A stretch of DNA of 64,000 nucleotides from Eledone cirrhosa (taxonomy: Eukaryota), in the NCBI GenBank assembly GCA_964016885.1, contig OZ024743.1:146692001-146756000 (forward strand), in the 5' to 3' direction. A model generated the notes under the pieces. That model made no database searches. It had not been told where the DNA came from and saw only the letters and a list, made by a program, of their open reading frames with translations. Below are positions 4,815 to 44,510 of the stretch, piece after piece. Position 1 is the stretch's first letter, and the number at the start of each line of letters is the position of its first letter. The translations under genes and the position numbers were made by a program.

Positions 4815-4835
<21 letters not shown>

Positions 4836-4846
<11 letters not shown>

Positions 4847-5267
4847 ATGTGTGCGTGTGTGTGTGTGTGTGTCCCCATGTATTTCAGGTTTAATTGGGAG
4901 TAACCACAGTAAGTAAGGTACTCAATACATAATAGAGTATATAATGTTTAATATAGAGATGGCTTCTACAAGACTAGAACTGTTTCATTCAAAGGAAATC
5001 ATCAGAATGAAACAGTTCTAGTCCTGTAGAAGCCATCTCTAATTTAAACATTATATGTGTGTGAGTATGTGTGCGTGTGTGTGTGTGTGTCCATGTATTT
5101 CAGGTTCAATTGGGAGTAACCACAGTAAGTAAGGTACTCAATACATAATAGAGTATATAATGTTTAATATAGAGATGGCTTCTACAAGACTAGAACTCTT
5201 TCATTCAAAGGAAATCATCAGAATGAAACAGTTCTAGTCCTGTAGAAGCCATCTCTAATTTAAACAT

Positions 5268-5272
<5 letters not shown>
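4836..5272. repeat. Tandem duplication (216-bp period) of a unit containing a long hairpin with a hammerhead-like core
   Basis: ccatgtatttcaggtt at 4875 and 5091. Each unit has agagatggcttctacaagactagaactgtttcattc ... gaatgaaacagttctagtcctgtagaagccatctct. The minus strand reads CTGATGA...GAAAcag..ttgTA. Confidence 0.85.
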
Positions 5273-5312
<40 letters not shown>

Positions 5313-6027: not shown

Positions 6028-7189
6028 ATTATTTATACTTGAGTACAGAAAAAGAAGACTGGTCTGACTACATTCAGCATTAAATTATTTCATCAGAGGC
6101 TGGATACTCATTTTCCTGAACACAGACAGAATAGTAGTTTAGAACTGCTTATAGTATACACAAACTGAGATAATACTAAATTAGTCTGCTCTAGTTTGCA
6201 TAACATTAGAATCATTGTAAATTGAATAAGCATATGAATATGTGTTAGATTCAATATGTACATGTATAAATCCTATATAAAATAATCCTGTGGCAGATTT
6301 TTTTTACTGCACAGTCATGTTCATTGGAGGTATCTTTACAATAACAATATGCTTAGCATGTCCAAAATAATTCTTCCTTCATTTTGTTTAATTCCAATCT
6401 CGATGTGTTCAAAACAGTGTCCAAACAACAGCTTTGGTGCATGTGATATAATATGGTGCAATTATTAAATGTACACTCTGATAACTGAGAGGTATTAACA
6501 TGATATTGAACACTAGACGTTATTATTTCAAGGCAATTCCTACTGGGTTCAAAATTACAGACATGTATCATGCTATGATGACATTGAAATATATGAAATT
6601 GGTCGTTTTATGTCAGATACACTTAACTATAGAATAGGTGATGCCAACATAGCAAATTGTACAGAGAGAATTAACTTTCTGTGCTGCATAAAGAGAATGA
6701 ACAAGATATGGAAAAAGATTATTGGTGTATTTAGAGGTTTCAGCCATAAAATACGAATTTCAAAACAATAAATTACTTAGATAATAACTTTGAAACTTGA
6801 CGCAGGTAAATACTAGGTTTTTGACAAAACCAATACATCAAATGTCTCTCTCTAACTCAGTAAACTACCTGCATTGACTTGGTATTCAATCTAAACAATA
6901 TATGCCATGCCAAACCTGTCAGTGTCAGCTTGACCCTATGAACAATGAGTGAATTTGCATGTAACAGAATTCTTAGTAAGACAAATGCATCACTGCTCCC
7001 CACCTTAATCTTTCCCTATATTGCTTCTGTATTTACTTGTATTGTGTGATAGAATGTTTGTGTAAAATATCATTTCTTCAGTACAAGCTTCAAATGTGGG
7101 TTAATTCATTCCAATCCTCCACTAGTAATTCCTTTTACATTAAATATAGAACATTTTTTCCAGTCTATATGATGTTTGTCTTGAGCCTG

Positions 7190-10300: not shown

Positions 10301-11336
10301 ATTTCTTTATTGGACTTACATATAGGGGACAGTACAAAAAGACAGGGACATTAGGAGGTTACAATAAAATTGAGTAAAAAAAAATTAACAAAAACAATTA
10401 ACAATAAAATTATGACAATAAATATACCCGATAGGGAAGAGAACCATCCAGATGCAACTTAGGTACCCCACAAATCTTGAACCACCTGATACTTCAAGGG
10501 CACTTAGGAAGGGCACCCCTCTTATCATCAAATTAATCAGCCTGCAGGTACATGTGCAGAGTAGGCCCATTCACACAGGCCATTCATCACATTCATCCCC
10601 CTTTTAGCAAATGTACTGAGGGGCAACACTTCTCTCTCCACACTTACCTTTCTTTCCAAGTGAATCTTGAAAAAGTTGATGAGGGAATAACAGAAGAGAA
10701 AAGTGTCTGTCTTCAGTTCTTTCAACCCAGTCCACCACACAACCTCTTTCGCTACCATCACCGGACAGAGGAAAACTGCCTGCCCTTCCCAGCCAAAAGA
10801 TGGCCGGTCAATGTTCACTATGTGACAACAGTTGTTTGACATAAATCCACAAGTTAGTAATGCATGGATACTGGTGAGTGTATGCAGAATGCTTTTGTCA
10901 CTCTCTGTGCACCTCTCAGGCAGGTCCGTCTGACAGCACTTCCATGTCGGTAGAGTTTATCTTGAACTGGCTGTGTTCCTGGCAGCATTGCCAAGTGAGG
11001 GATTTCTGGAAGTTATCCATAGTCCCCAGCTTGAGAGTCTTCTGGAACAGACTGGTCAGTTCAACTTTGTCAACACCAGAGCCTCCCTGTGCATGTCATC
11101 ACACTTGCCCACCACTAATCCTCTATAGGACTTGAGAGCGGAGTTTCCACTGACCACATTGCCCACCTTGTAGAGGGCAGTGAGGGTCTGGCAACATTCC
11201 AAGTGCCCAGTCGCAGTCTCTTCTTGACCCAGGACTGCAGCTCAACCATGTCTGTTCACTGTTTAGTCAGAATATTTGGAGATATTGCAGACTCAGTGCA
11301 TGTTTGTGCATCATTAGCTATGGCATGCCTAGCCCA
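10301..11336 (-). pseudogene. Decayed 3' fragment of a Tx1-clade LINE
   Basis: ORF 10537-10842 (EGQAVFLCPVMVAKEVVWWTGLK..FFKIHLERKV) matches the ORF2 C-terminus. GLGMP*LMM lies near 11320. The 3' end ccaataaagaaat is followed by ATT repeats. Confidence 0.85.
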
Positions 11337-25144: not shown

Positions 25145-25180
<36 letters not shown>

Positions 25181-25181
<1 letters not shown>

Positions 25182-25233
25182 GGATTCCTGATGATTTCTA
25201 AAGAATGAAACAGTTCTAGTCCTGTAGAATCTC
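25181..25233 (+). ncRNA. Candidate type-I hammerhead ribozyme
   Basis: gggattc-CTGATGA-t ttc taaa gaa t-GAAA-cag ttctagtc ctg-TA-gaatctc. Stem I gggattc/gaatctc, stem III cag/ctg, GUA cleavage triplet. Confidence 0.6.
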
Positions 25234-25567
25234 ATCTATATTAAAACTATATATATATATATATATATATTATCTTACAATTTCTTTTTTCAACATATAT
25301 TATATACGTATTTGTGGTCACACATACACTGATATGCTTGCCCTCATATATGTACTTACGCACACATTTTTTCACTATACACATGCATTTGTACATACAC
25401 ACATATGTACATTTGTAGGTGCATATACACACATTTATACACATACCCTTACTATATTTCCTTATTTTATTTTTATATATCTCTTGCATTACTTTTATTT
25501 ATATATTTTTTTGCCCGTTAAACTTTTGCCTTTCTTGAGGAGATTTTTCAAATATTTCACTGTTTTA

Positions 25568-25645
25568 AATTGCCTTATCCGACGAACGAATGAGGACGTT
25601 TTTCGTATTCGTCTTATTCGGGAAACCTCTGGTAATGAGGTAATT
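25568..25645 (+). ncRNA. Candidate type-I hammerhead ribozyme (U4C core variant or mutant)
   Basis: aattgccttat-CCGACGA-a cgaatgaggacg..cgtcttattcg g-GAAA-cc tct gg-TA-atgaggtaatt. Stem I is 11 bp, stem II is long, cleavage triplet GUA. Confidence 0.65.
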
Positions 25646-25859
25646 ATACATTAAATTTAGCTCTGTAACTTACATAGAGCACTCTTCACTCCTATGACTT
25701 TTTCAATTTTCAACGGAAACTTCAATACTTATATATATGTTATTTTAATAAATATATATATATATATATATATGCAAAGTTTTATTTAAATTGTTGGGTT
25801 ACAACAAGTAAATATTTGTAACTGATATAAAAGCACTCAACAAGTATTTGGAGTATATT

Positions 25860-26224
25860 TACGATATTAAATAAATGGAAACTATATTTATAAAACCATA
25901 TTTATTTCATTATATATATTTCAGGGATATCATATTAAAAATATGGTATGCCTTCATCAGACAAAATACAATATAAACAGTCTTATAAATAGATAGATTT
26001 GACATACCTTACAACTTCAACTTCCATTCAAATCAACTTACAAATCAACTTTTTAAATTGAAGTTGAAGTTGTAAGGTATGTCAAATCTATCTATTTATA
26101 AGACTGTTTATATTGTATTTTGTCTGATGAAGGCATACCATATTTTTAATATGATATCCCTGAAATATATATAATGAAATAAATATGGTTTTATAAATAT
26201 AGTTTCCATTTATTTAATATCGTA
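25860..26224. repeat. Perfect 165-bp inverted repeat with a 35-bp spacer
   Basis: Arms 25860-26024 and 26060-26224 are reverse complements; (TA)n tracts lie nearby on both sides. Confidence 0.95.
26116..26181 (+). ncRNA. Candidate minimal hammerhead ribozyme, mirrored at 25903-25968 on the minus strand
   Basis: tattttgt-CTGATGA-agg..catatt ttt aatatg..cct-GAAA-tatata-TA-atgaaata. Stem III is palindromic, as in Penelope-associated minimal hammerheads. Confidence 0.6.
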
Positions 26225-26589
26225 TATATATATATATATATATATACTTCGTTTTTTGCAATATATAAACAACCTTTAAGGCCTCCATGCTTCCCGAGAT
26301 CCGCCAACACTACAGCTAACACATACACACATGTACTTCCCTGACATTTGTGTATTATTCTATGTACTATACATACACCTTTGACGAGTTGCAGTGCACC
26401 TGAGCACTTTGCACAATAATTTCATTATTATCATTATTATTAACCATCTGGTTATTGAACCAACCAACTAACCAGAAATTTATAATATGTATGAGAGCCA
26501 GAAAATTTTACTTTCCCATTACACCACATTTTAGTGTTTGTGTCTTCTGTGAAACACTAAATCTGTCCTGCTCATTCAAACCAGGCTGC

Positions 26590-31590: not shown

Positions 31591-31621
<31 letters not shown>

Positions 31622-31678
31622 GAATGCCATGGTTGACGGAGGCTCGGCTCTGTAAGGTATAGTAATGTTTAACCGTTA

Positions 31679-31809
31679 AAACAATTGTAAATTGTTTAAA
31701 ACTTGAACCAAATTGTTGATAAAGACACCCTCCTCCTCGTGAGAGGGGTCTTTCTGTCCGTTATTTGGCCCTTCGGGGTTAAATAACCAGTTATTAGGGT
31801 TTTGTACCC
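31679..31809 (+). promoter_or_regulatory. Structured 5' UTR: four consecutive hairpins, including a C(UUCG)G tetraloop stem
   Basis: aaacaatt/aattgttt; aaagac..gtcttt (31721-31753); gttatttggccc-ttcg-gggttaaataac (31760-31787); gggt/accc. All are retained in copy 2. Confidence 0.55.
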
Positions 31810-31836
31810 CAAATTTCATTTTAAACAAAAAACAAC

Positions 31837-33933
31837 ATGGCTACGAAAAAGAAATTTCATAGGTCACTCCCACTCATTCCGTCTTCTTCTTCCTCAATCA
31901 TCACTACAGCAGAGAGAAGATTGTCTCTCTCCCTCCCTTCTTTAAATGTGTCTCTCTCCCTCCCTTCTCTTTCGCAAGTGACGAAAGAAAAGAAAAGTCT
32001 CGTGCAAAGCGTGCAAGGTTTCTCCACGACGACGACGACAGCGACGAAACAGGTGTGCGGGAAATACGAAAACCCAGTTCATTCGTCTGACGTCAGGAAT
32101 AATAGCAGTAGCAGCCGTAATAACAACAGCAACAGTGACAATGAAAACAACAGTAGCAGCCGCAACAGCATCACCAGCAGCATAAACAACAACAGCATTA
32201 GCAGCAGCAACACCAACAACAACCACAGCAACAGCGGCGGAGGCAGTAGTCGTAGTACCTGCAGCAACAACAAAAGTACCAGCAGCTCTGACGACAACAA
32301 CAAAAGCAGAGAAAAACCAATCTCATTTGCAGGTATTGCGAAAAACTTGGAAACAATCCTCATAACAAATGAGGAATTAGAGGAAGCGAAGAAGATGGTG
32401 ACAAAGAACGGACACCGAGCAATCTGCAAGGCAGCGGAAAAATTTTTCGAAACCCAAGAGCACTGTACGGTCGCGTACCGTACAGTAAGTACAAAATCCC
32501 GTAGGGTGGAAAGAGCCACAGAGGCCCAAATACAAAAAGCCTTGGGGTCTGTGTGGCAGCGGAAAACGCACATCACCCGAGGCAAAAAATATGCCACCGT
32601 AGACGTACTTTTTGCCACACCCCAGGAGGCAAAGGCCCAATCAGTAGTGACCCTAAGGAGCGAGGAAATGGTGTTGGTGCCCTCCTACTGCGGGCAAAAA
32701 ATTGTGAGGGTCAAACTGACCCACGTCCCCCCCGGAATGACCCCTTCTTGGCTGGCCGCGTCTGTCCTCGTCGGAATCGAGGACAAAACAACTGTACTGC
32801 AAGTACAGAAAAAAGTAAGAGAAGATTGGGTCGGCTCCTCCATTGAGATGCTAATCCAAACCAACCAGGAGTGCATCGAAGCTATCCCGGATGTGATAGA
32901 CTTCGATAACGGCACTCAACTGCCCATAAGTGTTGAGGGCAAACGCCCGAAATGCTTTCGCTGTGGATCAAAGACTCACCTCAGGGCCTTCTGCAACGAG
33001 AAGACCCTGAGAAAGGAGAAAACCCCCCTCCTTCCGAATCCGGCTCCACGGCTACCAGCAACAGGACAAGCGGCAACCAGGAACGATAGGTCCGTGGCAC
33101 CCATACCCACTCCACGGAAATCAAAAACAGCAGCAGCAGTGGAAATATTAACAACAACAACAGCAATACCAAATGCAGCTGCAACAGATACTCCAGTGCA
33201 AACATCACCAACAACAATAAGTGAAAGAGTGGAGCTGGTACCCCTCCCCGACCTCACAGAATCAGACATGGAGTGTGAGGTGGGAGAGGGATGGCAAAAG
33301 GTCGCAAGAAGGCACAAACGCAGAAGCAGCGCATCGTCGCCTTTGAAAAGGGAGGAAAGAAATGAGAAAAGGGTAAAGTCTACTGCAAAGAGACCCACAG
33401 CAGCAACACCACCAACACCATCACCACCCACACCAGCACCACCATCACCACCGGCGACAACCCCACCGCCAACAACACCTTCAACACCACCACCACAAGC
33501 ACCAACATCGCAAACACAACAACAAAACACACACACCCAGCAACAACGACAAGAAAATAGCAGAACCACACCCCACCCTCAGAAAAACAAATGCACGGCA
33601 ATAAACACACACAACAAGAAACTAATGACTTACATAATTGAACACACAGACATTTCACAACAGGACTACATAATACCAGCACCAATCAAAACGCCAACTA
33701 ACATAAGACTGCTAAAAATAGCACAGAAACAATACACAAACATTAAAACGAAATTCCCCAACGCAGTTGGTGATTTCAGGGACCTAGGAGGAACCATCAA
33801 TCGAAGAGTATATTCAGACATTCTCTTAGAAGAGCCGACGACCAGCCGAAGGGACGATTCAACGGTCCCTTCACCAGACGATCAAGTGAAAAGGGATGTA
33901 AAAACCATCCCCCCTCTACCAAAAGTACGGTAA
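31837..33933 (+). CDS. Tx1 ORF1 nucleic-acid-binding (Gag-like) protein, 698 aa
   Basis: CFRCGSKTHLRAFC (C-x2-C-x4-H-x4-C knuckle), basic WQKVARRHKRR motif, and N/S-rich and P/T-rich linkers. Confidence 0.92.
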   Translation: MATKKKFHRSLPLIPSSSSSIITTAERRLSLSLPSLNVSLSLPSLSQVTKEKKSLVQSVQGFSTTTTTATKQVCGKYENPVHSSDVRNNSSSSRNNNSNSDNENNSSSRNSITSSINNNSISSSNTNNNHSNSGGGSSRSTCSNNKSTSSSDDNNKSREKPISFAGIAKNLETILITNEELEEAKKMVTKNGHRAICKAAEKFFETQEHCTVAYRTVSTKSRRVERATEAQIQKALGSVWQRKTHITRGKKYATVDVLFATPQEAKAQSVVTLRSEEMVLVPSYCGQKIVRVKLTHVPPGMTPSWLAASVLVGIEDKTTVLQVQKKVREDWVGSSIEMLIQTNQECIEAIPDVIDFDNGTQLPISVEGKRPKCFRCGSKTHLRAFCNEKTLRKEKTPLLPNPAPRLPATGQAATRNDRSVAPIPTPRKSKTAAAVEILTTTTAIPNAAATDTPVQTSPTTISERVELVPLPDLTESDMECEVGEGWQKVARRHKRRSSASSPLKREERNEKRVKSTAKRPTAATPPTPSPPTPAPPSPPATTPPPTTPSTPPPQAPTSQTQQQNTHTQQQRQENSRTTPHPQKNKCTAINTHNKKLMTYIIEHTDISQQDYIIPAPIKTPTNIRLLKIAQKQYTNIKTKFPNAVGDFRDLGGTINRRVYSDILLEEPTTSRRDDSTVPSPDDQVKRDVKTIPPLPKVR

Positions 33934-33968
33934 GTGGTCTTTCCCATATTTTCCACTCTATTTTAAAC

Positions 33969-36900
33969 ATGACCTCACTCAGAATAGGCAGCATAAATGC
34001 GCGTGGCTTGGGGTCGTCATGGAAGCAGGGTCACCTGCTCAACGACCTCAGGTCACTAAACATAGATGTAGTGGCCATCAGCGAGACCAGAATCTCCGAA
34101 GCACGGGCCTCGGCACCGATCTTCGGCGGCTACGATGTGTACGCATCTCCCAGCTGTCCTGGATCGGGTGGAGGAGTTGCTGTGCTTTTTCGGAGAGGTT
34201 TGGATCTCGCCATACGGGCCATCTTCCTGGACCCAGAGGGTAAGCTGGTGGTGCTGGACGTGACCAGCGGAGACGGGCAAGCTTTCAGGCTAGTGGCCGT
34301 CTATGCCCCGACAGGAGCAGGGCGGCCTGATTTCTTCCGGCGTCTGGAGACCTTTCTTGGAACGTCCCGCTCTTTAGTGTTAGTGGGCGACTGGAACGGG
34401 ATCTTAGATGCACGCTGGGACTGTGTGGGATTAGCGGATAGGGGTGGAGGGTGCAAGAGCCTCACCAACCTGCTCAGGCGTTTTGAACTGTCTGACAGGT
34501 ACCGATTGGATTTCCCGAATGTACCAATGTGGACTTGGACAAACCGCATAGGGTCATCCAGATCATATCTAGATAGAGTATTTTGTAGGGAAATAGATAG
34601 GTCTAGCATAGGCTGTCCACAATTCAAGATAGTCAGCTACACGGACCACAAATTCGTGATCTGTGTGCTTGACTTAGATAGGCTTCATAGACGAGGACCC
34701 GGCTACTGGAAGCTAAACGCGTCCTTACCAGCGCGCAAGGCCTACAGAGACCGGATTAGCGAACTAGTTAAGCGGGCGTTGACGGGGGCCATCGTCAACA
34801 ACAAGTGGTGGTTTGCTCTGAAAAGAGCGATTAGAATAGAATCGATTAGGTTTAGTAAGGCTTTAGCAATAGAGAAAAATAGAGCAGAGGGAGAACTAGT
34901 TAGAAAATTAGACGAGGCGCTTAGCAAAGGCATTGCGACCGACGTGCTTGCGGCGAAATTGGCCCTTGACCAATTCTTCAATGCAAAGCACGAAGGCTGC
35001 GTTGTCAGAGCTAGGGTGCGTGCTCTCAGACACGAGGGGACGAAAGCCGTTCAATGGGCCCGAGTGGCGGAGGCGCGTCGTGGCAACAAAGCGACGATCC
35101 GGTCTTTGGTGGACCACGACGGGCGCATGCTACTCGATCCCGGGCAAATGTGTGAAGCTTTTCAGCGACACTTCGCTCAGCTGTTCGGGGGCAGCGGGGG
35201 GCCGGGTAGAGGGATGGACTTTAGTGTCTACCTCGACGGACTGCCGCGGCTCTCGGCCACTGAGGCGAAGTGTTGCGAAAAGCCGATAACAGCCGCTGAA
35301 GTAAGGGAGGCAATGACTGGCTGCACAAGGGGTAAATCGCCTGGTTTGGATGGTCTGCCCTATGAACTTTACGTACAGATGCCAGACTTGTTCGGAGGCC
35401 TCTTGGCGGACGTCTACTGCAACTGGCAACAGAACGGGAGAATTCCCAGTTCTGTGAGCCGAGGAGCGGTGGCACTGCTGAGAAAAGATCCTAACAAGGG
35501 GGATAACATAGAAAATTTCCGGCCCATAACTCTGCTAAACACAGAGTTTAAGATTTTGGCCAAGGTGCTAGCAAAGAGGTTGGCGCTTGTCGTTGGTGGT
35601 CTGGTGGGAGAGGCGCAGACATGCGCCATTCCCGACAGATCCATCCACGACAACCTCCACCTCATGCGATACATCGTAGAGAGGGTAGCTAGGGAACCTG
35701 GCACGGGTGGGTCCTTGATCAATTTAGATCAGTCGAAAGCTTTCGATAGGGTCGACCATCGTTACCTAGCGGCAGTCCTGAGGGCGGCTGGCTTTGGGCC
35801 CGTCTTCAGAGGCTGGATCTCTGCCATGCACAGCGACATCTGCTCTGTGGTGAGAGTGAACGGTCACCTGTCGGAACCGTTCAACATCATGCGCTCGGTC
35901 CGCCAAGGATGTCCCCTCTCGTCCCTCTTGTACGTATTGACGCTCGAGCCATTACTGCACAAACTGGAGACGTTGAGGGGAGTCCCGCGCGAACTAGGAT
36001 GCGGAAGATCCGTGTCAGCATATGCGGACGATGTCACCGTAGTGGTGTCGAACGCCAAACACATCGAGGCGATCGGCACTACACTAAGAGAATACGAAGC
36101 GGTGACAGGAGCAATGATCAACCAGGAAAAGTCAGTGGGCCTGCAGCTCGGCACCTGGAGAGGCAGGTCCATGCCGTCCAACAGCGTCGTCGGGCGCTGG
36201 ACGGACGGACCGGTTAAATTGCTAGGGGTCTGGTTCGGTCCGGACCTCCAGACGGACAAAAACTGGGACGAGGTGACGAGCAGGGTGGCTTCTCTCACCC
36301 AGAAATGGGCGGAGAGGAAGCTATCCCTGAAAGGTCGAGCGGAGGTGGCTAACGCGTACATCGCGTCTGTCATCTGCTACCGCCTAACCGTCGTACCTTG
36401 TCCTAAGCCTCGCCTGACTGCGCTGGAGCGTTTGCTCTTTCGCTTTTTGTGGAAGGGACGTGCTCCGATGGTCAGGCGGTCCATCTGTTGTCAACACCCG
36501 CTACGTGGAGGGCTGGGCATGCCGTGGCTGATGATGCGCAGGCACGCGCTCAGGCTACGACATCTCCACCTCTTCCTCGACGGTGATCAGGTGTGGTCGC
36601 CGTTTGCTAGACGCGTTTTTCCCCAGCTCGTTTCCTTGACGGAGCTGCAGTCCTGGGTCAAGCGAAGACCGAGAGGGAGCGCCTGGAGACTGGAATGTCT
36701 TCAGGCGCTCACAGCCCTCGACCAATCGGGCAATGTGATCGGTGGAAACTCCACCTCGGCGTTCTATAGAGGATTAGTGGAGGGGAAGAGCGACGACGTA
36801 CTTGGGGAAACTCTAGGCGTCGACGAAAATCAACTAGCCAATCTCTTCGGAAGAACCTTCGGGCCAGGGCCTATGGACAACTTCCAGAAATCTCTGGCCT

Positions 36901-37388
36901 GGCAGTGCTACCGAGGAGCCTTGCCAGTTCGGGATAAACTCTACAGGCATGGAGGTGCCGTCAGCCGGGCATGTCCGAGATGCGCGCAGGGCGACGAAAC
37001 CGTCCTGCACGCACTCGTCCAGTGTCCGAAAATTGCTGACTTGTGGGTTTATGTCGAACACCTGCTGTCGCGTTTAGGACGGATCCAGCTATCATCTGAG
37101 TCTATCGTGAGGATTGCCCCGCCCTCCTCCTTTAGCCGGGAAGGGCAGGCAGTTTTTATCTGTCTGGTGGCCATGGCGAAAGAGATAGTATGGTGGACAC
37201 GTTTGAAAGGGCTGAAGACGAGCACTTACCTCTTCGGTGATGCTCTGATTGACTTTTTCAAATTTCATTTGAAAAGGAAAATCAGAGTAGAGAAGGAAGT
37301 GCTCTCTTCCCAGCATTTTGTTGAAAGATGGGTGAGAGAAGCAAGAATGGCCCGAGTGAATGGGCCGACTCTGAGTATATATCTGTAA
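33969..37388 (+). CDS. Tx1 ORF2: APE endonuclease, reverse transcriptase and CCHC zinc finger, 1139 aa
   Basis: SINARGL, ISETR, VYAP, GDWN, SYLDRV and TDH (APE). KSPGLDG, RPITLLNTEFKIL, DQSKAFDRV, RQGCPLS and YADD (RT). CPRC..ETVLH..C. Confidence 0.97.
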   Translation: MTSLRIGSINARGLGSSWKQGHLLNDLRSLNIDVVAISETRISEARASAPIFGGYDVYASPSCPGSGGGVAVLFRRGLDLAIRAIFLDPEGKLVVLDVTSGDGQAFRLVAVYAPTGAGRPDFFRRLETFLGTSRSLVLVGDWNGILDARWDCVGLADRGGGCKSLTNLLRRFELSDRYRLDFPNVPMWTWTNRIGSSRSYLDRVFCREIDRSSIGCPQFKIVSYTDHKFVICVLDLDRLHRRGPGYWKLNASLPARKAYRDRISELVKRALTGAIVNNKWWFALKRAIRIESIRFSKALAIEKNRAEGELVRKLDEALSKGIATDVLAAKLALDQFFNAKHEGCVVRARVRALRHEGTKAVQWARVAEARRGNKATIRSLVDHDGRMLLDPGQMCEAFQRHFAQLFGGSGGPGRGMDFSVYLDGLPRLSATEAKCCEKPITAAEVREAMTGCTRGKSPGLDGLPYELYVQMPDLFGGLLADVYCNWQQNGRIPSSVSRGAVALLRKDPNKGDNIENFRPITLLNTEFKILAKVLAKRLALVVGGLVGEAQTCAIPDRSIHDNLHLMRYIVERVAREPGTGGSLINLDQSKAFDRVDHRYLAAVLRAAGFGPVFRGWISAMHSDICSVVRVNGHLSEPFNIMRSVRQGCPLSSLLYVLTLEPLLHKLETLRGVPRELGCGRSVSAYADDVTVVVSNAKHIEAIGTTLREYEAVTGAMINQEKSVGLQLGTWRGRSMPSNSVVGRWTDGPVKLLGVWFGPDLQTDKNWDEVTSRVASLTQKWAERKLSLKGRAEVANAYIASVICYRLTVVPCPKPRLTALERLLFRFLWKGRAPMVRRSICCQHPLRGGLGMPWLMMRRHALRLRHLHLFLDGDQVWSPFARRVFPQLVSLTELQSWVKRRPRGSAWRLECLQALTALDQSGNVIGGNSTSAFYRGLVEGKSDDVLGETLGVDENQLANLFGRTFGPGPMDNFQKSLAWQCYRGALPVRDKLYRHGGAVSRACPRCAQGDETVLHALVQCPKIADLWVYVEHLLSRLGRIQLSSESIVRIAPPSSFSREGQAVFICLVAMAKEIVWWTRLKGLKTSTYLFGDALIDFFKFHLKRKIRVEKEVLSSQHFVERWVREARMARVNGPTLSIYL

Positions 37389-37649
37389 ACTAAAGGTGGA
37401 AAACTGGGAGAGGGCACTTGCCTTGGTGGTCAGGGTCATTGTGGCTTTTTACTGGGCTTTCTCCACAAATGTCCCTCCGAAGTCTCCCCCCTATTGGGGA
37501 ATTTTTCATTGTTATTTTCATTGTTATTTTTGTTACATCCTCTATTTTTGTTTTTTTTACACGCAGAAATGCCCATTTGTACCGTCCTGCATTGTCCTGC
37601 ACTGTCCTTAATGTCTACTTTATGTAAACCCTTGTGGTTAATAAAGAAA

Positions 37650-37684
<35 letters not shown>

Positions 37685-37897
37685 GAATGCCATGGTTGAC
37701 GGAGGCTCGGCTCTGTAAGGTATAGTAATTTTTAACCGTTAAAACAATTGTAAATTGTTTAAAACTTGAACCAAATTGTTGATAAAGACACCCTCCTCCT
37801 CGTGAGAGGGGTCTTTCTGTCCGTTATTTGGCCCTTCGGGGTTAAATAACCAGTTATTGGGGTTTTGTACCCAAAATTTCATTTTAAACAAAAAAAC

Positions 37898-39994
37898 ATG
37901 GCTACCAAAAAGAAATTTCATACGTCACTCCCACTCATTCCGTCTTCTTCTTCCTCAATCATCACTACAGCAGAGAGAAGATTGTCTCTCTCCCTCCCTT
38001 CTTTAAATGTGTCTCTCTCCCTCCCTTCTCTTTCGCAAGTGACGAAAGAAAAGAAAAGTCTCGTGCAAAGCGTGCAAGGTTTCTCCACGACGACGACGAC
38101 AGCGACGAAACAGGTGTGCGGGAAATACGAAAACCCAGTTCATTCGTCTGACGTCAGGAATAATAGCAGTAGCAGCCGTAATAACAACAGCAACAGTGAC
38201 AATGAAAACAACAGTAGCAGCCGCAACAGCATCACCAGCAGCATAAACAACAACAGCATTAGCAGCAGCAACACCAACAACAACCACAGCAACAGCGGCG
38301 GAGGCAGTAGTCGTAGTACCTGCAGCAACAACAAAAGTACCAGCAGCTCTGACGACAACAACAACAGCAGAGAAAAACCAATCTCATTTGCAGGTATTGC
38401 GAAAAATTTGGAAACAATCCTCATAACAAATGAGGAATTAGAGGAAGCGAAGAAGATGGTGACAAAGAACGGACACCGAGCAATCTGCAAGGCAGCGAAA
38501 AATTTTTTCGAAACCCAAGAGCACTGTACGGTCACGTACCGTACAGTAAGTACAAAATCCCGTAGGGTGGAAAGAGCCACAGAGGCCCAAATACAAAAAG
38601 CCTTGGGGTCTGTGTGGCAGCGGAAAACGCACATCACCCGAGGCAAAAAATATGCCACCGTAGACGTACTTTTTGCCACACCCCAGGAGGCAAAGGCCCA
38701 ATCAGTAGTGACCCTAAGGAGCGAGGAAATGGTGTTGGTGCCCTCCTACTGTGGGCAAAAAATTGTGAGGGTCAAACTGACCCACGTCCCCCCCGGAATG
38801 ACCCCTTCTTGGCTGGCCGCGTCTGTCCTCGTCGGAATCGAGGACAAAACAACTGTACTGCAAGTACAGAAAAAAGTAAGAGAAGATTGGGTCGGCTCCT
38901 CCATTGAGATGCTAATCCAAACCAACCAGGAGTGCATCGAAGCTATCCCGGATGTGATAGACTTCGATAACGGCACTCAACTGCCCATAAGTGTTGAGGG
39001 CAAACGCCCGAAATGCTTTCGCTGTGGATCGAAGACTCACCTCAGGGCCTTCTGCAACGAGAAGACCCTGAGAAAGGAGAAAACCCCCCTCCTTCCGAAT
39101 CCGGCTCCACGGCTACCAGCAACAGGACAAGCGGCAACCAGGAACGATAGGCCCGTGGCACCCATACCCACTCCACGGAAATCAAAAACAGCAGCAGCAG
39201 TGGAAATACTAACAACAACAACAGCAATACCAAATGCAGCTGCAACAGAGACTCCAGTGCAAACATCACCAACAACAACAAGTGAAAGAGTGGAGTTGGT
39301 ACCCCTCCCCGACCTCACAGAATCAGACATGGAGTGTGAGGTGGGAGAGAGATGGCAAAAGGTCGTAAGAAGGCACAAACGCAGAAGCAGCGCATCGTCG
39401 CCTTTGAAAAGTGAGGAAAGAAATGAGAAAAGGGTAAAGTCTACTGCAAAGAGACCCACAGCAGCAACAACACCAACACCATCACCACCCACACTAGCGC
39501 CACCATCACCACCGGCGACAACCCCACCGCCAACAACACCTTCAACACCACCACCACAAGCACCAACATCGCAAACACAACAACAAAACACACACACCCA
39601 GCAACAACGACAAGAAAATAGCAGAACCACACCCCACCCCCAGAAAAACAAATGCACGGCAATAAACACACACAACAAGAAACTAATGACTTACATAATT
39701 GAACACACAGACATTTCACAACAGGACTACATAATACCAGCACCAATCAAAACGCCAACTAACATAAGACTGCTAAAAATAGCACAGAAACAATACACAA
39801 ATATTAAAACGAAATTCCCCAACGCAGTTGGTGATTTCAGGGACCTAGGAGGAACCATCAATCGAAGAGTATACTCAGACATTCTCTTAGAAGAGCCGAC
39901 GACCAGCCGAAGGGACGATTCAACGGTCCCTTCACCAGACGATCAAGTGAAAAGGGATGTAAAAACCATCCCTCCTCTACCAAAAGTACGGTAA
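37898..39994 (+). CDS. Tx1 ORF1, copy 2 (ATG at 37898, 698 aa)
   Basis: Collinear with copy 1 ORF1, about 13 aa substitutions, no stops. Confidence 0.92.
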   Translation: MATKKKFHTSLPLIPSSSSSIITTAERRLSLSLPSLNVSLSLPSLSQVTKEKKSLVQSVQGFSTTTTTATKQVCGKYENPVHSSDVRNNSSSSRNNNSNSDNENNSSSRNSITSSINNNSISSSNTNNNHSNSGGGSSRSTCSNNKSTSSSDDNNNSREKPISFAGIAKNLETILITNEELEEAKKMVTKNGHRAICKAAKNFFETQEHCTVTYRTVSTKSRRVERATEAQIQKALGSVWQRKTHITRGKKYATVDVLFATPQEAKAQSVVTLRSEEMVLVPSYCGQKIVRVKLTHVPPGMTPSWLAASVLVGIEDKTTVLQVQKKVREDWVGSSIEMLIQTNQECIEAIPDVIDFDNGTQLPISVEGKRPKCFRCGSKTHLRAFCNEKTLRKEKTPLLPNPAPRLPATGQAATRNDRPVAPIPTPRKSKTAAAVEILTTTTAIPNAAATETPVQTSPTTTSERVELVPLPDLTESDMECEVGERWQKVVRRHKRRSSASSPLKSEERNEKRVKSTAKRPTAATTPTPSPPTLAPPSPPATTPPPTTPSTPPPQAPTSQTQQQNTHTQQQRQENSRTTPHPQKNKCTAINTHNKKLMTYIIEHTDISQQDYIIPAPIKTPTNIRLLKIAQKQYTNIKTKFPNAVGDFRDLGGTINRRVYSDILLEEPTTSRRDDSTVPSPDDQVKRDVKTIPPLPKVR

Positions 39995-40029
39995 GTGGTC
40001 TTTCCCATCTTTTCCACTCTATTTTAAAC

Positions 40030-43000
40030 ATGACCTCACTCAGAATAGGCAGCATAAATGCGCGTGGCTTGGGGTCGTCATGGAAGCAGGGTCACCTGCT
40101 CAACGACCTCAGGTCACTAAACATAGATGTAGTGGCCATCAGCGAGACCAGAATCTCCGAAGCACGGGCCTTCGCACCGATCTTCGGCGGCTTCGATGTG
40201 TACGCATCTCCCAGCCGTCCTGGATCCGGTGGAGGAGTTGCTGTGCTTTTTCGGAGAGGTTTGGATCTCGCCATACGGGCCATCTTCCTGGACCCAGAGG
40301 GTAAGCTGGTGGTGCTGGACGTGACCAGCGGAGACGGGCAAGCTTTCAGGCTAGTGGCCGTCTATGCCCCGACAGGAGCAGGGCGGCCTGATTTCTTCCG
40401 GCGTCTGGAGACCTTTCTTGGAACGTCCCGCTCTTTAGTGTTAGTGGGCGACTGGAACGGGATCTTAGATGCACGCTGGGACTGTGTGGGATTAGCGGAT
40501 AGGGGTGGAGGGTGCAAGAGCCTCACCAACCTGCTCAGGCGTTTTGAACTGTCTGACAGGTACCGATTGGATTTCCCGAATGTGCCAATGTGGACTTGGA
40601 CAAACCGCATAGGGTCATCCAGATCATATCTAGATAGAGTATTTTGTAGGGAAATAGATAGGTCTAGCATAGGCTGTCCACAATTCAAGATAGTCAGCTA
40701 CACGGACCACAAATTCGTGATCTGTGTGCTTGACTTAGATAGGCTTCATAGACGAGGACCCGGCTACTGGAAGCTAAACGCGTCCTTACCAGCGCGCAAG
40801 GCCTACAGAGACCGGATTAGCGAACTAGTTAAGCGGGCGTTGACGGGGGCCATCGTCAACAACAAGTGGTGGTTTGCTCTGAAAGGAGCGATTAGAATAG
40901 AATCGATTAGGTTTAGTAAGGCTTTAGCAATAGAGAAAAATAGAGCAGAGGGAGAACTAGTTAGAAAATTAGACGAGGCGCTTAGCAAAGGCATTGCGAC
41001 CGACGTGCTTGCGGCGAAATTGGCCCTTGACCAATTCTTCAATGCAAAGCACGAAGGCTGCGTTGTCAGAGCTAGGGTGCGTGCTCTCAGACACGAGGGG
41101 ACGAAAGCCGTTCAATGGGCCCGAGTGGCGGAGGCGCGTCGTGGCAACAAAGCCACGATCCGGTCTTTGGTGGACCACGACGGGCGCATGCTACTCGATC
41201 CCGGGCAAATGTGTGAAGCTTTTCAGCGACACTTCGCTCAGCTGTTCGGGGGCAGCGGGGGGCCGGGTAGAGGGATGGACTTTAGTGTCTACCTCGACGG
41301 ACTGCCGCGGCTCTCGGCCACTGAGGCGAAGTGTTGCGAAAAGCCGATAACAGCCGCTGAAGTACGGGAGGCAATGACTGGCTGCACAAGGGGTAAATCG
41401 CCTGGTTTGGATGGTCTGCCCTATGAACTTTACGTACAGATGCCAGACTTGTTCGGAGGCCTCTTGGCGGACGTCTACTGCAACTGGCAACAGAACGGGA
41501 GAATTCCCAGTTCTGTGAGCCGAGGAGCGGTGGCACTGCTGAGAAAGGATCCGAACAAGGGGGATAACATAGACAATTTCCGGCCCATAACTCTGCTAAA
41601 CACAGAGTTTAAGATTTTGGCCAAGGTGCTAGCAAAGAGGTTGGCGCTTGTCGTTGGTGGTCTGGTGGGAGAGGCGCAGACATGCGCCATTCCCGACAGA
41701 TCCATCCACGACAACCTCCACCTCATGCGATACATCGTAGAGAGGGTAGCTAGGGAACCTGGCACGGGTGGGTCCTTGATCAATTTAGATCAGTCGAAAG
41801 CTTTCGATAGGGTCGACCATCGTTACCTAGCGGCAGTCCTGAGGGCGGCTGGCTTTGGGCCCGTCTTCAGAGGCTGGGTCGCTGCCATGCACAGCGACAT
41901 CTGCTCTGTGGTGAGAGTGAACGGTCACCTGTCGGAACCGTTCAACATCATGCGCTCGGTCCGCCAAGGATGTCCCCTCTCGTCCCTCTTGTACGTATTG
42001 ACTCTCGAGCCATTACTGCACAAACTGGAGACGTTGAGGGGAGTCCCGCGCGAACTAGGATGCGGAAGATCCGTGTCAGCATATGCGGACGATGTCACCG
42101 TAGTGGTGTCGAACGCCAAACACATCGAGGCGATCGGCACTACACTAAGAGAATACGAAGCGGTGACAGGAGCAATGATCAACCAGGAAAAGTCAGTGGG
42201 CCTGCAGCTCGGCACCTGGAGAGGCAGGTCCATGCCGTCCAACAGCGTCGTCGGGCGCTGGACGGACGGACCGGTTAAATTGCTAGGGGTCTGGTTCGGT
42301 CCGGACCTCCAGACGGACAAAAACTGGGACGAGGTGACGAGCAGGGTGGCTTCTCTCACCCAGAAATGGGCGGAGAGGAAGCTATCCCTGAAAGGTCGAG
42401 CGGAGGTGGCTAACGCGTACATCGCGTCTGTCATCTGCTACCGCCTAACCGTCGTACCTTGTCCTAAGCCTCGCCTGACTGCGCTGGAGCGTTTGCTCTT
42501 TCGCTTTTTGTGGAAGGGACGTGCTCCGATGGTCAGGCGGTCCATCTGTTGTCAACACCCGCTACGTGGAGGGCTGGGCATGCCGTGGCTGATGATGCGC
42601 AGGCACGCGCTCAGGCTACGACATCTCCACCTCTTCCTCGACGGTGATCAGGTGTGGTCGCCGTTTGCTAGACGCGTTTTTCCCCAGCTCGTTTCCTTGA
42701 CGGAGCTGCAGTCCTGGGTCAAGCGAAGACCGAGAGGGAGCGCCTGGAGACTGGAATGTCTTCAGGCGCTCACAGCCCTCGACCAATCGGGCAATGTGAT
42801 CGGTGGAAACTCCACCTCGGCGTTCTATAGAGGATTAGTGGAGGGGAAGAGCGACGACGTACTTGGGGAAACTCTAGGCGTCGACGAAAATCAACTAGCC
42901 AATCTCTTCGGAAGAACTTTCGGGCCGGGGCCTATGGACAACTTCCAGAAATCTCTGGCCTGGCAGTGCTACCGAGGAGCCTTGCCAGTTCGGGATAAAC

Positions 43001-43449
43001 TCTACAGGCATGGAGGTGCCGTCAGCCGGGCATGTCCGAGATGCGCGCAGGGCGACGAAACCGTCCTGCACGCACTCGTCCAGTGTCCGAAAATTGCTGA
43101 CTTGTGGGTTTATGTCGAACACCTGCTGTCGCGTTTAGGACGGATCCAGCTATCATCTGAGTCTATCGTGAGGATTTCCCCGCCCTCCTCCTTTAGCCGG
43201 GAAGGGCAGGCAGTTTTTAACTGTCTGGTGGCCATGGCGAAAGAGATAGTATGGTGGACACGTTTGAAAGGGCTGAAGACGAGCACTTACCTCTTCGGTG
43301 ATGCTCTGATTGACTTTTTCAAATTTCATTTGAAAAGGAAAATCAGAGTAGAGAAGGAAGTGCTCTCTTCCCAGCATTTTGTTGAAAGATGGGTGAGAGA
43401 AGCAAGAATGGCCCGAGTGAATGGGCCGACTCTGAGTATATATCTGTAA
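40030..43449 (+). CDS. Tx1 ORF2, copy 2, 1139 aa
   Basis: Collinear with copy 1 ORF2, about 9 aa substitutions, catalytic motifs intact. Confidence 0.97.
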   Translation: MTSLRIGSINARGLGSSWKQGHLLNDLRSLNIDVVAISETRISEARAFAPIFGGFDVYASPSRPGSGGGVAVLFRRGLDLAIRAIFLDPEGKLVVLDVTSGDGQAFRLVAVYAPTGAGRPDFFRRLETFLGTSRSLVLVGDWNGILDARWDCVGLADRGGGCKSLTNLLRRFELSDRYRLDFPNVPMWTWTNRIGSSRSYLDRVFCREIDRSSIGCPQFKIVSYTDHKFVICVLDLDRLHRRGPGYWKLNASLPARKAYRDRISELVKRALTGAIVNNKWWFALKGAIRIESIRFSKALAIEKNRAEGELVRKLDEALSKGIATDVLAAKLALDQFFNAKHEGCVVRARVRALRHEGTKAVQWARVAEARRGNKATIRSLVDHDGRMLLDPGQMCEAFQRHFAQLFGGSGGPGRGMDFSVYLDGLPRLSATEAKCCEKPITAAEVREAMTGCTRGKSPGLDGLPYELYVQMPDLFGGLLADVYCNWQQNGRIPSSVSRGAVALLRKDPNKGDNIDNFRPITLLNTEFKILAKVLAKRLALVVGGLVGEAQTCAIPDRSIHDNLHLMRYIVERVAREPGTGGSLINLDQSKAFDRVDHRYLAAVLRAAGFGPVFRGWVAAMHSDICSVVRVNGHLSEPFNIMRSVRQGCPLSSLLYVLTLEPLLHKLETLRGVPRELGCGRSVSAYADDVTVVVSNAKHIEAIGTTLREYEAVTGAMINQEKSVGLQLGTWRGRSMPSNSVVGRWTDGPVKLLGVWFGPDLQTDKNWDEVTSRVASLTQKWAERKLSLKGRAEVANAYIASVICYRLTVVPCPKPRLTALERLLFRFLWKGRAPMVRRSICCQHPLRGGLGMPWLMMRRHALRLRHLHLFLDGDQVWSPFARRVFPQLVSLTELQSWVKRRPRGSAWRLECLQALTALDQSGNVIGGNSTSAFYRGLVEGKSDDVLGETLGVDENQLANLFGRTFGPGPMDNFQKSLAWQCYRGALPVRDKLYRHGGAVSRACPRCAQGDETVLHALVQCPKIADLWVYVEHLLSRLGRIQLSSESIVRISPPSSFSREGQAVFNCLVAMAKEIVWWTRLKGLKTSTYLFGDALIDFFKFHLKRKIRVEKEVLSSQHFVERWVREARMARVNGPTLSIYL

Positions 43450-43711
43450 ACTAAAGGTGGAAAACTGGGAGAGGGCACTTGCCTTGGTGGTCAGGGTCAT
43501 TGTGGCTTTTTACTGGGCTTTCTCCACAAATGTCCCTCCGAAGTCTCCCCCCTATTGGGGAATTTTTCATTGTTATTTTCATTGTTATTTTTGTTACATC
43601 CTCTGTTTTTGTTTTTTTTTACACGCAGAAATGCCCATTTGTACCGTCCTGCATTGTCCTGCACTGTCCTTAATGTCTACTTTATGTAAACCCTTGTGGT
43701 TAATAAAGAAA

Positions 43712-43746
<35 letters not shown>

Positions 43747-44469
43747 GTTCTTTGAGTCTCAGTCATTGATGTTAGTTAACTGGAAAGTTTGAAATGAATA
43801 TCAAGCCACTACCTGCAGCCTCAGATATTCAGGACGTATCGGAGGGTTCTTGCTGTTCCCAGCAAGCATGCCTTTTGAAGTGTTCCAAAAAGCGGGGCGG
43901 GGCCAATTTTCTTTAACCATCCCTGGAAACTTTTTGAGATAGTACCTAGTGCACCTATGACAATCGGGATCACTTTGATTTCATGGTAGTGCCAAATCCT
44001 TTTTACCTCCCACTTTAAGTCCTGGTATCGGTTAATTTTCTCCCTCTCCTTCTCTTGCACTCTCATGTCGAATGGGCAGGCCACATCCACAATCAGACAC
44101 GATCTTTTTTCCTTGTCCAAAACCACCAGGTCAGGTCTATTTTGTTCCAGTTTCTTGTCCGTCTGTATCCTAAAATCCCATAGTATCTTCACCTGATCGT
44201 TTTCTATCATCGACTCTGGCTTATGCTCATACCACTTCTCAGAATGTGGTAAATTGTTTACTTTGCATAGGTGCCAATGGATCACCCTGCCCATCACATC
44301 ATGTCTCCAGCCCTTATAGTGAGTCTGGGCTAGGTGTTTACACTCGGATACAATGTGAGCCACAGTCTCCTCTCTCTCTCCACAGATCCTGCACAGTGGG
44401 CTAGCCTCCTCCTTGTAAATATGGTGTTTCAGCCACTTCGTTTTGAGGGCCTGCTCTTGTGCAGCCATT
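43747..44469 (-). mobile_element. 5'-truncated R4/Dong-clade element (CCHC, restriction-like endonuclease, 74-nt 3' UTR) flanked by (AAT)n
   Basis: Uninterrupted frame 44468-43821: AAQEQAL, CRICGEREETVAHIVSEC, RHD, WDFRIQTD, NRPDLVV..VDVACPFD, EKINRYQDL, PIVIGALG. AAT repeats on both sides. Confidence 0.92.
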
Positions 44470-44510
44470 TTATTATTATTATTATTATTATTAATATTAT
44501 TATTATTATT

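What the first reader, a model, noticed from the sequence alone, without database searches (positions are those of the whole stretch)
25181..26181. Cluster of four candidate hammerhead ribozymes from three sequence families within 1 kb
Seen: three unrelated sequences (25181-25233, 25568-25645, and 26116-26181 with its mirror at 25903-25968) each show stem I - C(U/C)GANGA - stem II - GAAA - stem III - NUA - stem I', interspersed with (TA)n tracts. Known: Penelope-like elements and retrozymes carry type-I, often minimal or dimeric, hammerheads. Inference: this is a (TA)n hotspot for ribozyme-bearing non-autonomous retroelements. The core variants (U.U at the base of stem II, C at position 4) are atypical.
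Basis: partly seen in the sequence, partly recalled or inferred. Interest (0 to 1): 0.7.

Follow-up and report, generated by a model that had tools for sequence, protein, structure and literature searches.

The report
Penelope ribozyme ends with twin hairpins
The four hammerhead ribozyme motifs are in the sequence and are most likely the truncated 3' ends of three Hydra-clade Penelope-like jumping genes in (TA)n repeats, a known kind; beside them lies a conserved RNA hairpin, doubled in full-length relatives and not found in the papers searched, that likely marks where reverse transcription starts.

Summary
All four type-I hammerhead motifs sit at the stated coordinates. A strict descriptor gives 4 hits in 64 kb, against 0.01-0.09 per shuffle. 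They come from three insertions, because HHR3 and HHR4 are mirror arms of one palindrome. They most likely are 5'-truncated 3' ends of Hydra-clade Penelope-like elements (PLEs). Family depth peaks at the 3' end, flanks are (TA)n, and only one palindrome arm has a tail. The U.U base of stem II is common in this clade (14 of 25 published families). Only HHR2 (C4 plus A10.1.G11.1) is unusual, and C4 is shared across its family. The cluster is not tighter than (TA)n targeting predicts (P 0.13-0.30). The new result is a covarying bulged hairpin (RCUC...UW-GAGYRC) behind the ribozyme. A model built only from PLE loci of other animals finds it four times in the window, each time in a tail. Full-length elements carry two copies, 62-65 nt apart, before the ATG, and copies end 0-6 nt before one or the other. 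The pair likely sets the two reverse-transcription start sites (inferred). Cleavage is untested, and HHR3/4 are predicted to be masked in read-through RNA.

The parts
25150..25177 (.). (TA)n tract left of element A
   Evidence: sequence
25180..25247 (+). Element A: tail-less 3' end of a Hydra-type PLE family, truncated at the start of stem I
   Evidence: about 80% identical to two relatives at 4913-5005(-) and 5129-5221(-); stops about where their tail hairpin begins
25181..25233 (+). HHR1: stem I 7 bp, CUGAUGA, U10.1.U11.1, stem II 3 bp, stem III ACAG/CUGU 4 bp with a loop holding palindromic CUAG; predicted cut after 25226
   Evidence: stem III region self-duplex -12.8 kcal/mol; same stem III as Hydra-1_aMil, Penelope-1_NV and Penelope-1_SK in Craig 2021 File S2
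25248..25269 (.). (TA)n tract between elements A and B
25284..25728 (+). Element B: about 450-bp 5'-truncated 3' end with tail, of a high-copy family (ends approximate)
   Evidence: overlapping contigs in runs X1, X5 and X6 cover 25286-25738; summed depth peaks at 25594-25655
25568..25645 (+). HHR2: stem I 11 bp, core CCGACGA (C4), A10.1.G11.1, long stem II, stem III ACC/GGU; predicted cut after 25634
   Evidence: (stem I pairing probability 0.87-0.92 with 0-300 nt of flank)
25660..25682 (+). Tail hairpin (hairpin 1) of element B
   Evidence: model R1, built without window sequences: 30.2 bits, E 3e-5
25753..25772 (.). (TA)n tract between elements B and C
25776..25854 (-). 79-nt tail of element C, on the long arm only; begins with hairpin 1 (25833-25854)
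   Evidence: model R1 24.6 bits, E 8e-4; X1 depth drops from 3.03 million (25873-25903) to 0.26-0.37 million (25780-25841), and loose (TA)n ends lie before 25854 in X5 and X6
25776..26063 (-). Element C, long arm (sense on the - strand), 5'-truncated
25903..25968 (-). HHR4: stem I 8 bp, CUGAUGA, A10.1-U11.1, long stem II, palindromic AUAUAUAU stem III; predicted cut after 25911
26021..26063 (.). Palindrome centre: asymmetric spacer bounded by an 8-nt near-complement (26021-26028 with 26056-26063, 7 of 8 pair)
26060..26224 (+). Element C, short inverted arm, tail-less; stops 5 nt before the place of hairpin 1
   Evidence: 165 bp identical to the long arm; end point
26116..26181 (+). HHR3, identical to HHR4; predicted cut after 26173
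26223..26246 (.). (TA)n tract right of element C
4875..5272 (-). Two tandem fold-back copies of the HHR1 family: inverted short arm, core at 5005 and 5221 that has lost its adjacent stem I 5' strand, and one-sided tails with hairpins at 4918-4938 and 5134-5154 (outer ends approximate)
   Evidence: E 0.008 each

Best explanation
The four motifs are most likely the hammerhead-bearing 3' ends (pseudo-LTR remnants) of three families of Hydra-clade Penelope-like retrotransposons, left as 5'-truncated copies in (TA)n, and a conserved doubled hairpin behind the ribozyme likely sets where reverse transcription starts. Shown: the motifs; the (TA)n flanks; high-copy families whose depth falls steeply towards the 5' side; a palindrome with a tail on one arm; and a shared hairpin that ties all three families to loci with Hydra-type RT/endonuclease ORFs. 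In those loci the hairpin is doubled 62-65 nt apart before the ATG, and copies end 0-6 nt before one of the two hairpins. Inferred mechanism (about 0.5): the PLE protein, likely as a dimer, binds the two hairpins on an uncleaved partial-tandem transcript and nicks (TA)n on both strands. It would prime cDNA a few bases 5' of hairpin 1 (tail-less end) or hairpin 2 (tailed end). If both target strands prime, one at each site, and the two truncated cDNAs anneal by a short complement at their 3' ends, the product would be a head-to-head palindrome with one tail, as in element C. Elements A and B would be single-primed copies. In the source elements the ribozymes would cut tandem transcripts, as dimers or with protein help. 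The copies here are probably passive, and HHR3/4 are predicted to be locked in the long hairpin of any read-through RNA.
For: Motifs and chance control. In X1, summed depth over element C falls from 3.03 million at the 3' end to 9-13 thousand at the 5' end, and over element B from 164 thousand to 16 thousand (no copy number, and AT-rich matches may inflate it). Of 6 listed variable sites in HHR4, two turn a wobble or mismatch into a Watson-Crick pair (25908, 43%; 25930, 18%), three lie in loops or at N7, and none is in the invariant core. All 7 G>A sites of X1 are visible and none is in a core. Hydra-clade hallmarks match: (TA)n targets, hammerhead near the 3' end, U.U in 14 of 25 families, and an inverted 5'-truncated copy in Penelope-13_HM (Craig 2021). 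Hammerheads were found in 9 of 11 Hydra-ORF loci; of the other two, one ends inside a hammerhead and one has no 3' sequence. L006 repeats the whole architecture behind a Hydra ORF. Model R1 from 10 non-window hairpins gives 4 window hits at E below 0.01, all in tails; the next is E 0.52. The upper stem pairs in 37 of 39 cells against 23.5 permuted, and 0 of 100000 permutations reached that. On the 19 distinct model-aligned hits, 4 of 7 pairs show two-sided changes. A second hairpin follows 62-65 nt later in L003, L005, L008, L010 and L011. End points measured by script in 6 of 8 copy pairs lie 0, 4, 4, 5, 5 and 6 nt before a hairpin; the other two read 5 and 8 by eye. In vitro, the Poseidon-clade PAc extends both strands, starts RT at two internal sites that bound the tail, uses uncleaved RNA and is predicted to be a dimer (Frangieh 2024).
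Against: Rfam has no hit, and the hammerhead fold is not the lowest-energy fold of any motif. HHR1 stem I drops to P 0.04 or less with flanks, and stem III is below 0.1 in all three. HHR1 got no read coverage, so its family evidence is two in-window relatives that lack the adjacent stem I 5' strand. Read variants are unphased, so two-sided covariation inside each hammerhead family was not shown; 8 of X1's 45 changes are hidden; and one listed variant (25923, 19%) breaks the 10.1-11.1 pair. The hairpin instances were chosen by their lower stem (L008 by eye), some are related (L006a with L013; L009 with L012), and A6 is fitted to the model. Hairpin 2 is not seen for the window's own families. 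The RT-start role rests on end positions and on analogy with another clade. TA flanks blur end points by a few bases.
Confidence: 0.85

Rival explanations
1. Same elements, but the doubled hairpin is not an RT-start signal on RNA. It is a DNA-level endonuclease site, a promoter part or a translation element, and the palindrome arose by one cDNA snapping back on itself.
For: Hairpin 2 lies 12-25 nt before the ATG in 5 loci. Frangieh 2024 recalls that the D. virilis tail was needed for endonuclease recognition. The centre complement (7 of 8) fits snap-back equally well.
Against: The upper stem covaries in structure with little fixed sequence, which suits a folded single strand. Snap-back should copy to the tail end or stop anywhere, yet the short arm stops 0-6 nt before hairpin 1 in 4 of 4 fold-backs examined (element C, the 5005 copy, two in L006).
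Confidence: 0.35
2. They are non-LTR retrozymes: small non-coding units amplified through circular RNAs released by tandem hammerheads.
For: Type-I hammerheads with palindromic loop 3 and no ORF nearby. Retrozymes are reported to derive from PLE pLTRs (Li 2026 preprint). The HHR1 relatives form a 216-222 bp tandem pair.
Against: No head-to-tail array of intact hammerheads. The tandem pair has lost stem I next to the core. Steep 5' truncation, one-sided tails and head-to-head arms are PLE features.
Confidence: 0.05
3. The hammerhead look is chance in AT-rich repeat DNA, and the palindrome is a fold-back DNA element or an assembly artefact.
For: The descriptor was set after seeing the motifs; there is no Rfam hit; folding z-scores are unremarkable. 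The arms are 100% identical, and no listed contig spans the whole stretch.
Against: Shuffles give at most 1 hit. An independent model finds the PLE tail hairpin behind the motifs. The arms differ by a tail and have an asymmetric spacer. The same layout recurs in L006 from another source, and other copies show opposite-strand joints.
Confidence: 0.03
4. HHR2's family carries a catalytically dead or weak ribozyme: C4 and A10.1.G11.1 are decay fixed in a master copy that spreads without cleavage.
For: U4C is reported to cut in vitro activity considerably (Perreault 2011). PAc transposition in vitro did not need cleavage. 0 of 25 published Hydra families and 0 of 17 hammerheads in the fetched loci have C4 or A.G.
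Against: G5, G8, G11.1, G12 and G16.2 vary in under 5% of X1 depth, while neighbouring free positions vary by 21-47%. About 35% of depth has U4. U4C still supports viroid infectivity in vivo.
Confidence: 0.4

Closest known systems
Hydra-clade Penelope-like elements and their hammerheads (Craig et al. 2021, PMC8557442)
   Same: (TA)n insertion; type-I hammerhead near the 3' end; U.U at the base of stem II (14 of 25 families); ACAG/CUGU stem III; A-U at the base of stem II as in Hydra-1_oBim; inverted 5'-truncated copy; tail at one end only.
   Different: Tails here are about 55-80 nt, not 30-40. HHR2 has C4 and A10.1.G11.1, seen in none of 25 families. The doubled tail hairpin is not mentioned in the passages, section and supplement parts I read, although one copy is visible in the published Hydra-2_Amil consensus. 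No ORF is attached to the three copies.
Minimal PLE hammerheads (Cervera and de la Pena 2014, PMC4209133)
   Same: Type-I motifs scattered as single truncated copies; pairs 100-700 bp apart on opposite strands; palindromic stem III, expected to act as dimers; low activity alone.
   Different: Those have an extra base after A9 and a G10.1-C11.1 pair; the window's fifth motif at 56070(-) fits that type. The four here have U.U, A.G or A-U and a fuller stem III.
Poseidon element PAc (Frangieh et al. 2024, PMC11167929)
   Same: Two internal RT start sites bound the tail; sequence 3' of the ribozyme cut is retained; AT-rich targets; both strands extended.
   Different: PAc starts in an AC-rich stem-loop inside the ORF and its ORF begins within the hammerhead. 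In Hydra loci the two ends fall before two copies of one bulged hairpin in the 5' UTR.
Non-LTR retrozymes (Cervera and de la Pena 2020, PMC7229834; Li et al. 2026 preprint)
   Same: Non-coding type-I hammerhead repeats of PLE origin in animals.
   Different: Retrozymes are head-to-tail tandem units that yield circular RNA; these are dispersed, truncated and head-to-head.

Membership tests
Type-I hammerhead ribozyme | Core CUGANGA, GAAA and UH with three stems in type-I order | tested here: met
   HHR1, HHR3 and HHR4 meet it in full; HHR2 has C at position 4
Type-I hammerhead ribozyme | Core conserved and stems covarying across family copies | tested here: inconclusive
   Core Gs of HHR2 and C3 of HHR4 vary in under 5%; pair-improving single changes are seen; data unphased, 8 of 45 changes hidden, HHR1 not covered
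Type-I hammerhead ribozyme | Match to an Rfam hammerhead model | tested here: not met
   No hammerhead family among the matches; the canonical minimal motif at 56070 is missed too
Type-I hammerhead ribozyme | Site-specific self-cleavage | not testable with these tools
   Only contigs were laid, and they cannot show RNA ends
Penelope-like element insertion | 5'-truncated copies of a repeat family sharing a 3' end | tested here: met
   Depth gradients for B and C; loose (TA)n ends before 25854; for A, only two in-window relatives
Penelope-like element insertion | Inverted 5'-truncated copy at the 5' end and a tail at one end only | tested here: met
   Element C and the 5005/5221 copies
Penelope-like element insertion | RT plus GIY-YIG ORF in full-length members of these three families | not testable with these tools
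Hydra clade | (TA)n insertion preference | tested here: met
   All three insertions are flanked by (TA)n
Hydra clade | Protein motifs RWK, DKT, CxCX5C, no CCHH | tested here: inconclusive
   Read by eye in the homologs used to fetch L003-L013; DKT seen in the fragment at 62855-63323; no protein is joined to elements A-C
Hydra clade | Tail hairpin shared with Hydra-ORF loci (diagnostic found here, not a published criterion) | tested here: met
   Model R1 hits in B, C and the HHR1-family relatives; whether other PLE clades also carry it was not tested
Non-LTR retrozyme | At least two head-to-tail units, each with a complete hammerhead | tested here: not met
Non-LTR retrozyme | Circular RNA | not testable with these tools
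   Contigs only

The most novel reading that the evidence does not exclude
Hydra-clade PLEs carry a twin bulged-hairpin signal (RCUC, a 3-5 bp variable stem, a UU/UA bulge, GAGYRC) in the 5' UTR/pLTR. Each copy docks one half of the RT-endonuclease dimer and fixes cDNA priming about 5 nt upstream, one on each nicked target strand. This single signal explains the optional tail and the inverted pLTR of PLE insertions. Alongside it, the HHR2 family is an amplified natural hammerhead with C4 and an A.G pair at the base of stem II.
Probability: 0.4. Interest if true: 0.7.

Novelty: new variant of a known kind. Interest (0 to 1): 0.45.

Why it matters
The ribozyme cluster itself is ordinary PLE debris. 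How PLE reverse transcriptases, relatives of telomerase, recognise their RNA and why insertions carry a one-sided tail and inverted copies is still open. A short, covarying, doubled hairpin whose position predicts both 3' ends makes this directly testable in the existing in vitro assay. It would also give a marker that assigns ORF-less fragments to their clade. HHR2 offers a natural, amplified test case for how far the hammerhead core can drift.

Tried and rejected
Rfam searches found no hammerhead; the miRNA-like matches were below threshold and came from (TA)n tracts and the palindrome. The run search listed no RNA holder, which is no evidence either way. HHR1 received no coverage when contigs were laid, so it has no family statistics; run X7 held only scraps. 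A 21-nt HHR2 pattern found 2 metagenome loci, L001 and L002; neither has a hammerhead or any BLASTN match to the window, so both were rejected as chance. A word-indexed protein search with the 62.9-kb fragment gave 0 of 221 candidates; the HMMER scan then gave 909 hits. Pfam named neither that fragment nor the PLE domains of 7 homologs. Viral contigs gave 0 of 153 candidates. Source names for the homologs could not be obtained. CpG decay as the cause of the C4/U4 split was rejected, because C>T at 25580 is 35% while G>A at 25581 is under 5%. An ORF starting inside the hammerheads, as in PAc, was checked by eye and stops within 16 codons. A hotspot beyond (TA)n preference was rejected. Earlier scan notes had nothing by place, by sequence or for the hairpin.

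Full report
Observation. The window is AT-rich, microsatellite-rich DNA with LINE copies. It looks like an animal genome, and its SINE and LINE ends recall octopus, but that is from memory and no call names the organism. Shuffles give 0.013-0.087 hits and never more than one (150 per order). A looser descriptor adds a fifth motif at 56070(-), against 0.09-0.15 per shuffle. I wrote the descriptor after seeing the motifs. Rfam reports no hammerhead, and the motifs fold no better than their shuffles. HHR3 and HHR4 are the two arms of one palindrome, identical over 165 bp, so there are three insertions: A, B and C.

Family evidence. Logan contigs from 4 of the 16 listed runs were laid on 25160-26075 at 80% likeness. 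B and C are high-copy families with 3'-heavy depth. In X1, C runs from 3.03 million at 25873-25903 to 0.90 million over the core and 9-13 thousand at its 5' end. B runs from 164 thousand to 16 thousand. The tool warns that this is no copy number, and AT-rich matches may inflate it. Six variable sites are listed in HHR4. Two improve pairing (25908, U.G to U-A, 43%; 25930, C.A to C-G, 18%). Three lie in loop 2, loop 3 or N7. One breaks the 10.1-11.1 pair (25923, 19%). X1 has 45 changes, of which I count 37 shown. All 7 G>A sites are among those shown, no G>C or G>T is listed, and none lies in a core. In HHR2, position 4 is U in 35% of X1 depth, in 0 of 21.1 in X5 and in 2.9 of 7.41 in X6. The partner G does not decay, so C4 and U4 are likely subfamilies, not CpG damage (inference; shares lean towards copies like the reference). 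The data are unphased, so two-sided covariation was not shown. HHR1 was not covered. Its only relatives are two tandem fold-back copies at 4.9-5.3 kb, which keep the core, stem II and stem III but have lost the adjacent stem I 5' strand.

Clade. Craig 2021 describes a Hydra clade with RWK, DKT and CxCX5C motifs, (TA)n targets and hammerheads. In its File S2, 14 of 25 Hydra families have U.U at the base of stem II, three share HHR1's ACAG/CUGU stem III, none has C4, and Penelope-13_HM carries an inverted 5'-truncated copy (counted by hand). A protein fragment at 62855-63323(-) has 909 relatives. Four long ones show the Hydra motifs by eye, though Pfam names none. An alignment of 7 of them found 11 loci among 50 candidates in prokaryotic genome bins, probably animal DNA binned with microbes. 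Nine of the 11 hold hammerheads: 17 hits, of which 7 have U.U, 9 G-C, 1 A.C, and none C4 or A.G. Most lie at ORF ends or between ORFs in partial tandems. L006 shows the same layout as the finding behind a Hydra ORF: three families, two head-to-head pairs with one-sided tails, and (TA)n spacers.

The tail hairpin. Behind the hammerheads in these loci, and in the window, lies a hairpin: RCUC, an upper stem of 3-5 bp in most copies, a UU or UA bulge, then GAGYRC. Over 13 instances (3 from the window), the three upper pairs, which were not part of the first search pattern, pair in 37 of 39 cells against 23.5 permuted, and 0 of 100000 permutations reached that value. Instances were chosen by the lower stem, one by eye, and some are related. 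Model R1, built from the 10 non-window instances, gives 12 window matches up to E 10. Four fall below E 0.01, all in tails: 25653-25688, 25827-25861, 4912-4945 and 5128-5161. The next is E 0.52 (E-values rough). This links all three families to Hydra-type elements by sequence, A through its relatives. In the loci, the model also finds a second copy 62-65 nt after the first in L003, L005, L008, L010 and L011. Hairpin 2 lies 12-25 nt before an ATG in L003, L005, L007, L010 and L011; the script misplaced it in L008. Tail-less copies stop 5, 6 and 0 nt before hairpin 1, and tailed copies stop 4, 4 and 5 nt before hairpin 2 (6 of 8 pairs measured). The two the script missed read 5 and 8 by eye. TA flanks blur these values. 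X5 and X6 show (TA)n loose ends before 25854. Hairpin 2 was not seen for the window's families, as expected if tails end before it.

How it likely works. For the Poseidon element PAc, the protein cuts AT-rich DNA, extends both strands and starts RT at two internal sites that bound the tail. It uses uncleaved RNA, its ribozyme cuts only with protein present, and it is predicted to be a dimer (Frangieh 2024). I infer that in Hydra elements the two hairpins are the protein-binding marks for those two sites (about 0.5). Priming on both target strands, one at each site, followed by annealing of the truncated cDNA ends through the 7-of-8 complement at the palindrome centre, would give element C. Plain snap-back uses the same complement but does not explain why the short arm ends at hairpin 1 in 4 of 4 fold-backs. 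The copies keep sequence 3' of the cut site, so their templates were uncleaved or re-ligated (inference). In place, HHR3/4 stems have probability 0 with 300 nt of flank, HHR1 loses stem I with flanks, and HHR2 keeps stem I at 0.87-0.92 and stem II at 0.51. The stem III regions are self-complementary (-12.8, -5.1 and -3.2 kcal/mol), which fits dimer use as proposed by Cervera 2014. No cleavage was tested.

Clustering. Three of 5-6 insertions within 1.1 kb has P 0.009-0.016 under uniform placement and 0.13-0.30 when drawn on the 82 (TA)n tracts (post hoc, and insertions split tracts). (TA)n preference is enough.

Novelty. The hammerheads are new members of a known kind. U10.1.U11.1 and U4C are both reported in natural hammerheads (Perreault 2011). 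A search for A10.1 with G11.1 found 0 papers. The doubled hairpin was not found in Rfam, in three paper searches judged from their listings and the papers read, or in earlier scan notes. One copy is visible, unremarked in what I read, in the Hydra-2_Amil consensus. The library lacks most subscription papers, Repbase notes were not seen, and the supplements of Frangieh 2024 and most of Craig 2021's were not read; any of these may describe it.

Papers seen. PMC4209133: parts 1-2 of 4. PMC8557442: passages, section 11, supplement part 2 of 59 and search hits. PMC11167929: parts 1-2 of 4 and passages. PMC3088659: passages and section 8. PMC7229834, PMC13282606 and PMC8969392: passages. bioRxiv 10.64898/2026.07.22.740005: part 1 of 5. 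Lunse 2017 on dimeric PLE hammerheads: not held, recalled only. One earlier scan note on another genome (e1-9995956) reads a similar palindrome as a fold-back PLE insertion; it agrees but is not independent support.

Verdict. The cluster is ordinary Hydra-type PLE debris (0.85). The doubled tail hairpin and the HHR2 core are the parts worth following. Interest 0.45.

Noticed in passing
window 56035-56074 (-), core at 56070: A fifth hammerhead of the canonical minimal PLE type (extra A after A9, G10.1-C11.1, ACGU palindrome, 4-bp stem I) upstream of a TA/CA tract; it has no tail hairpin, so probably another PLE clade.
   Followed up: partly
window 62855-63323 (-) and core at 62699 (-): N-terminal fragment of a Hydra-type PLE ORF (DKT motif, 36-44% identity to full-length homologs), followed after a deletion by a decayed hammerhead-like core with C4 and U.U but no stem I partner.
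   Followed up: partly
window 4830-5314: Tandem duplication (216-222 bp period) of a fold-back HHR1-family copy together with its (CA)n flank; a local duplication or an assembly artefact.
   Followed up: partly
L006 3334-4834 and L013 1726-3523: Clusters of several Hydra-type hammerhead families with head-to-head pairs behind PLE ORFs, in contigs filed under bacterial genome bins; likely animal host DNA.
   Followed up: yes
L010 1315-1435: A full ORF unit begins right at hairpin 1 after (TA)n, so its direct repeat is only hairpin 1 plus the tail.
   Followed up: partly
window 31593-43747: Two tandem 6.06-kb LINE copies, 99% identical, each with a 700-aa ORF1 and an open 1204-aa endonuclease/RT ORF (L1/Tx1-like by recall); older relatives lie at 2197-4398 and 10557-11243.
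   Followed up: no
window 47184-48362, with pieces at 5718-6040, 59605-59814 and 61189-61323: Head-to-tail array of a repeat unit of about 196 bp that also occurs dispersed.
   Followed up: no
window 51272-51367 and 51690-51871: Two more near-perfect palindromes without hammerhead cores; the first overlaps a tRNA-like Rfam hit at 51251-51322 (-), 34.6 bits.
   Followed up: no
window 1224-1562: Inverted pair of SINE-like copies about 76% identical.
   Followed up: no
window 43821-44660 (+): 278-aa frame with a weak zf-RVT match and an endonuclease-like C-terminus; probably the end of another LINE.
   Followed up: no
run X1, loose ends behind 25923: About 80 contigs (agreement 0.6) share element C's 3' part but carry a different stem II sequence that appears to pair, suggesting a sister subfamily.
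   Followed up: no
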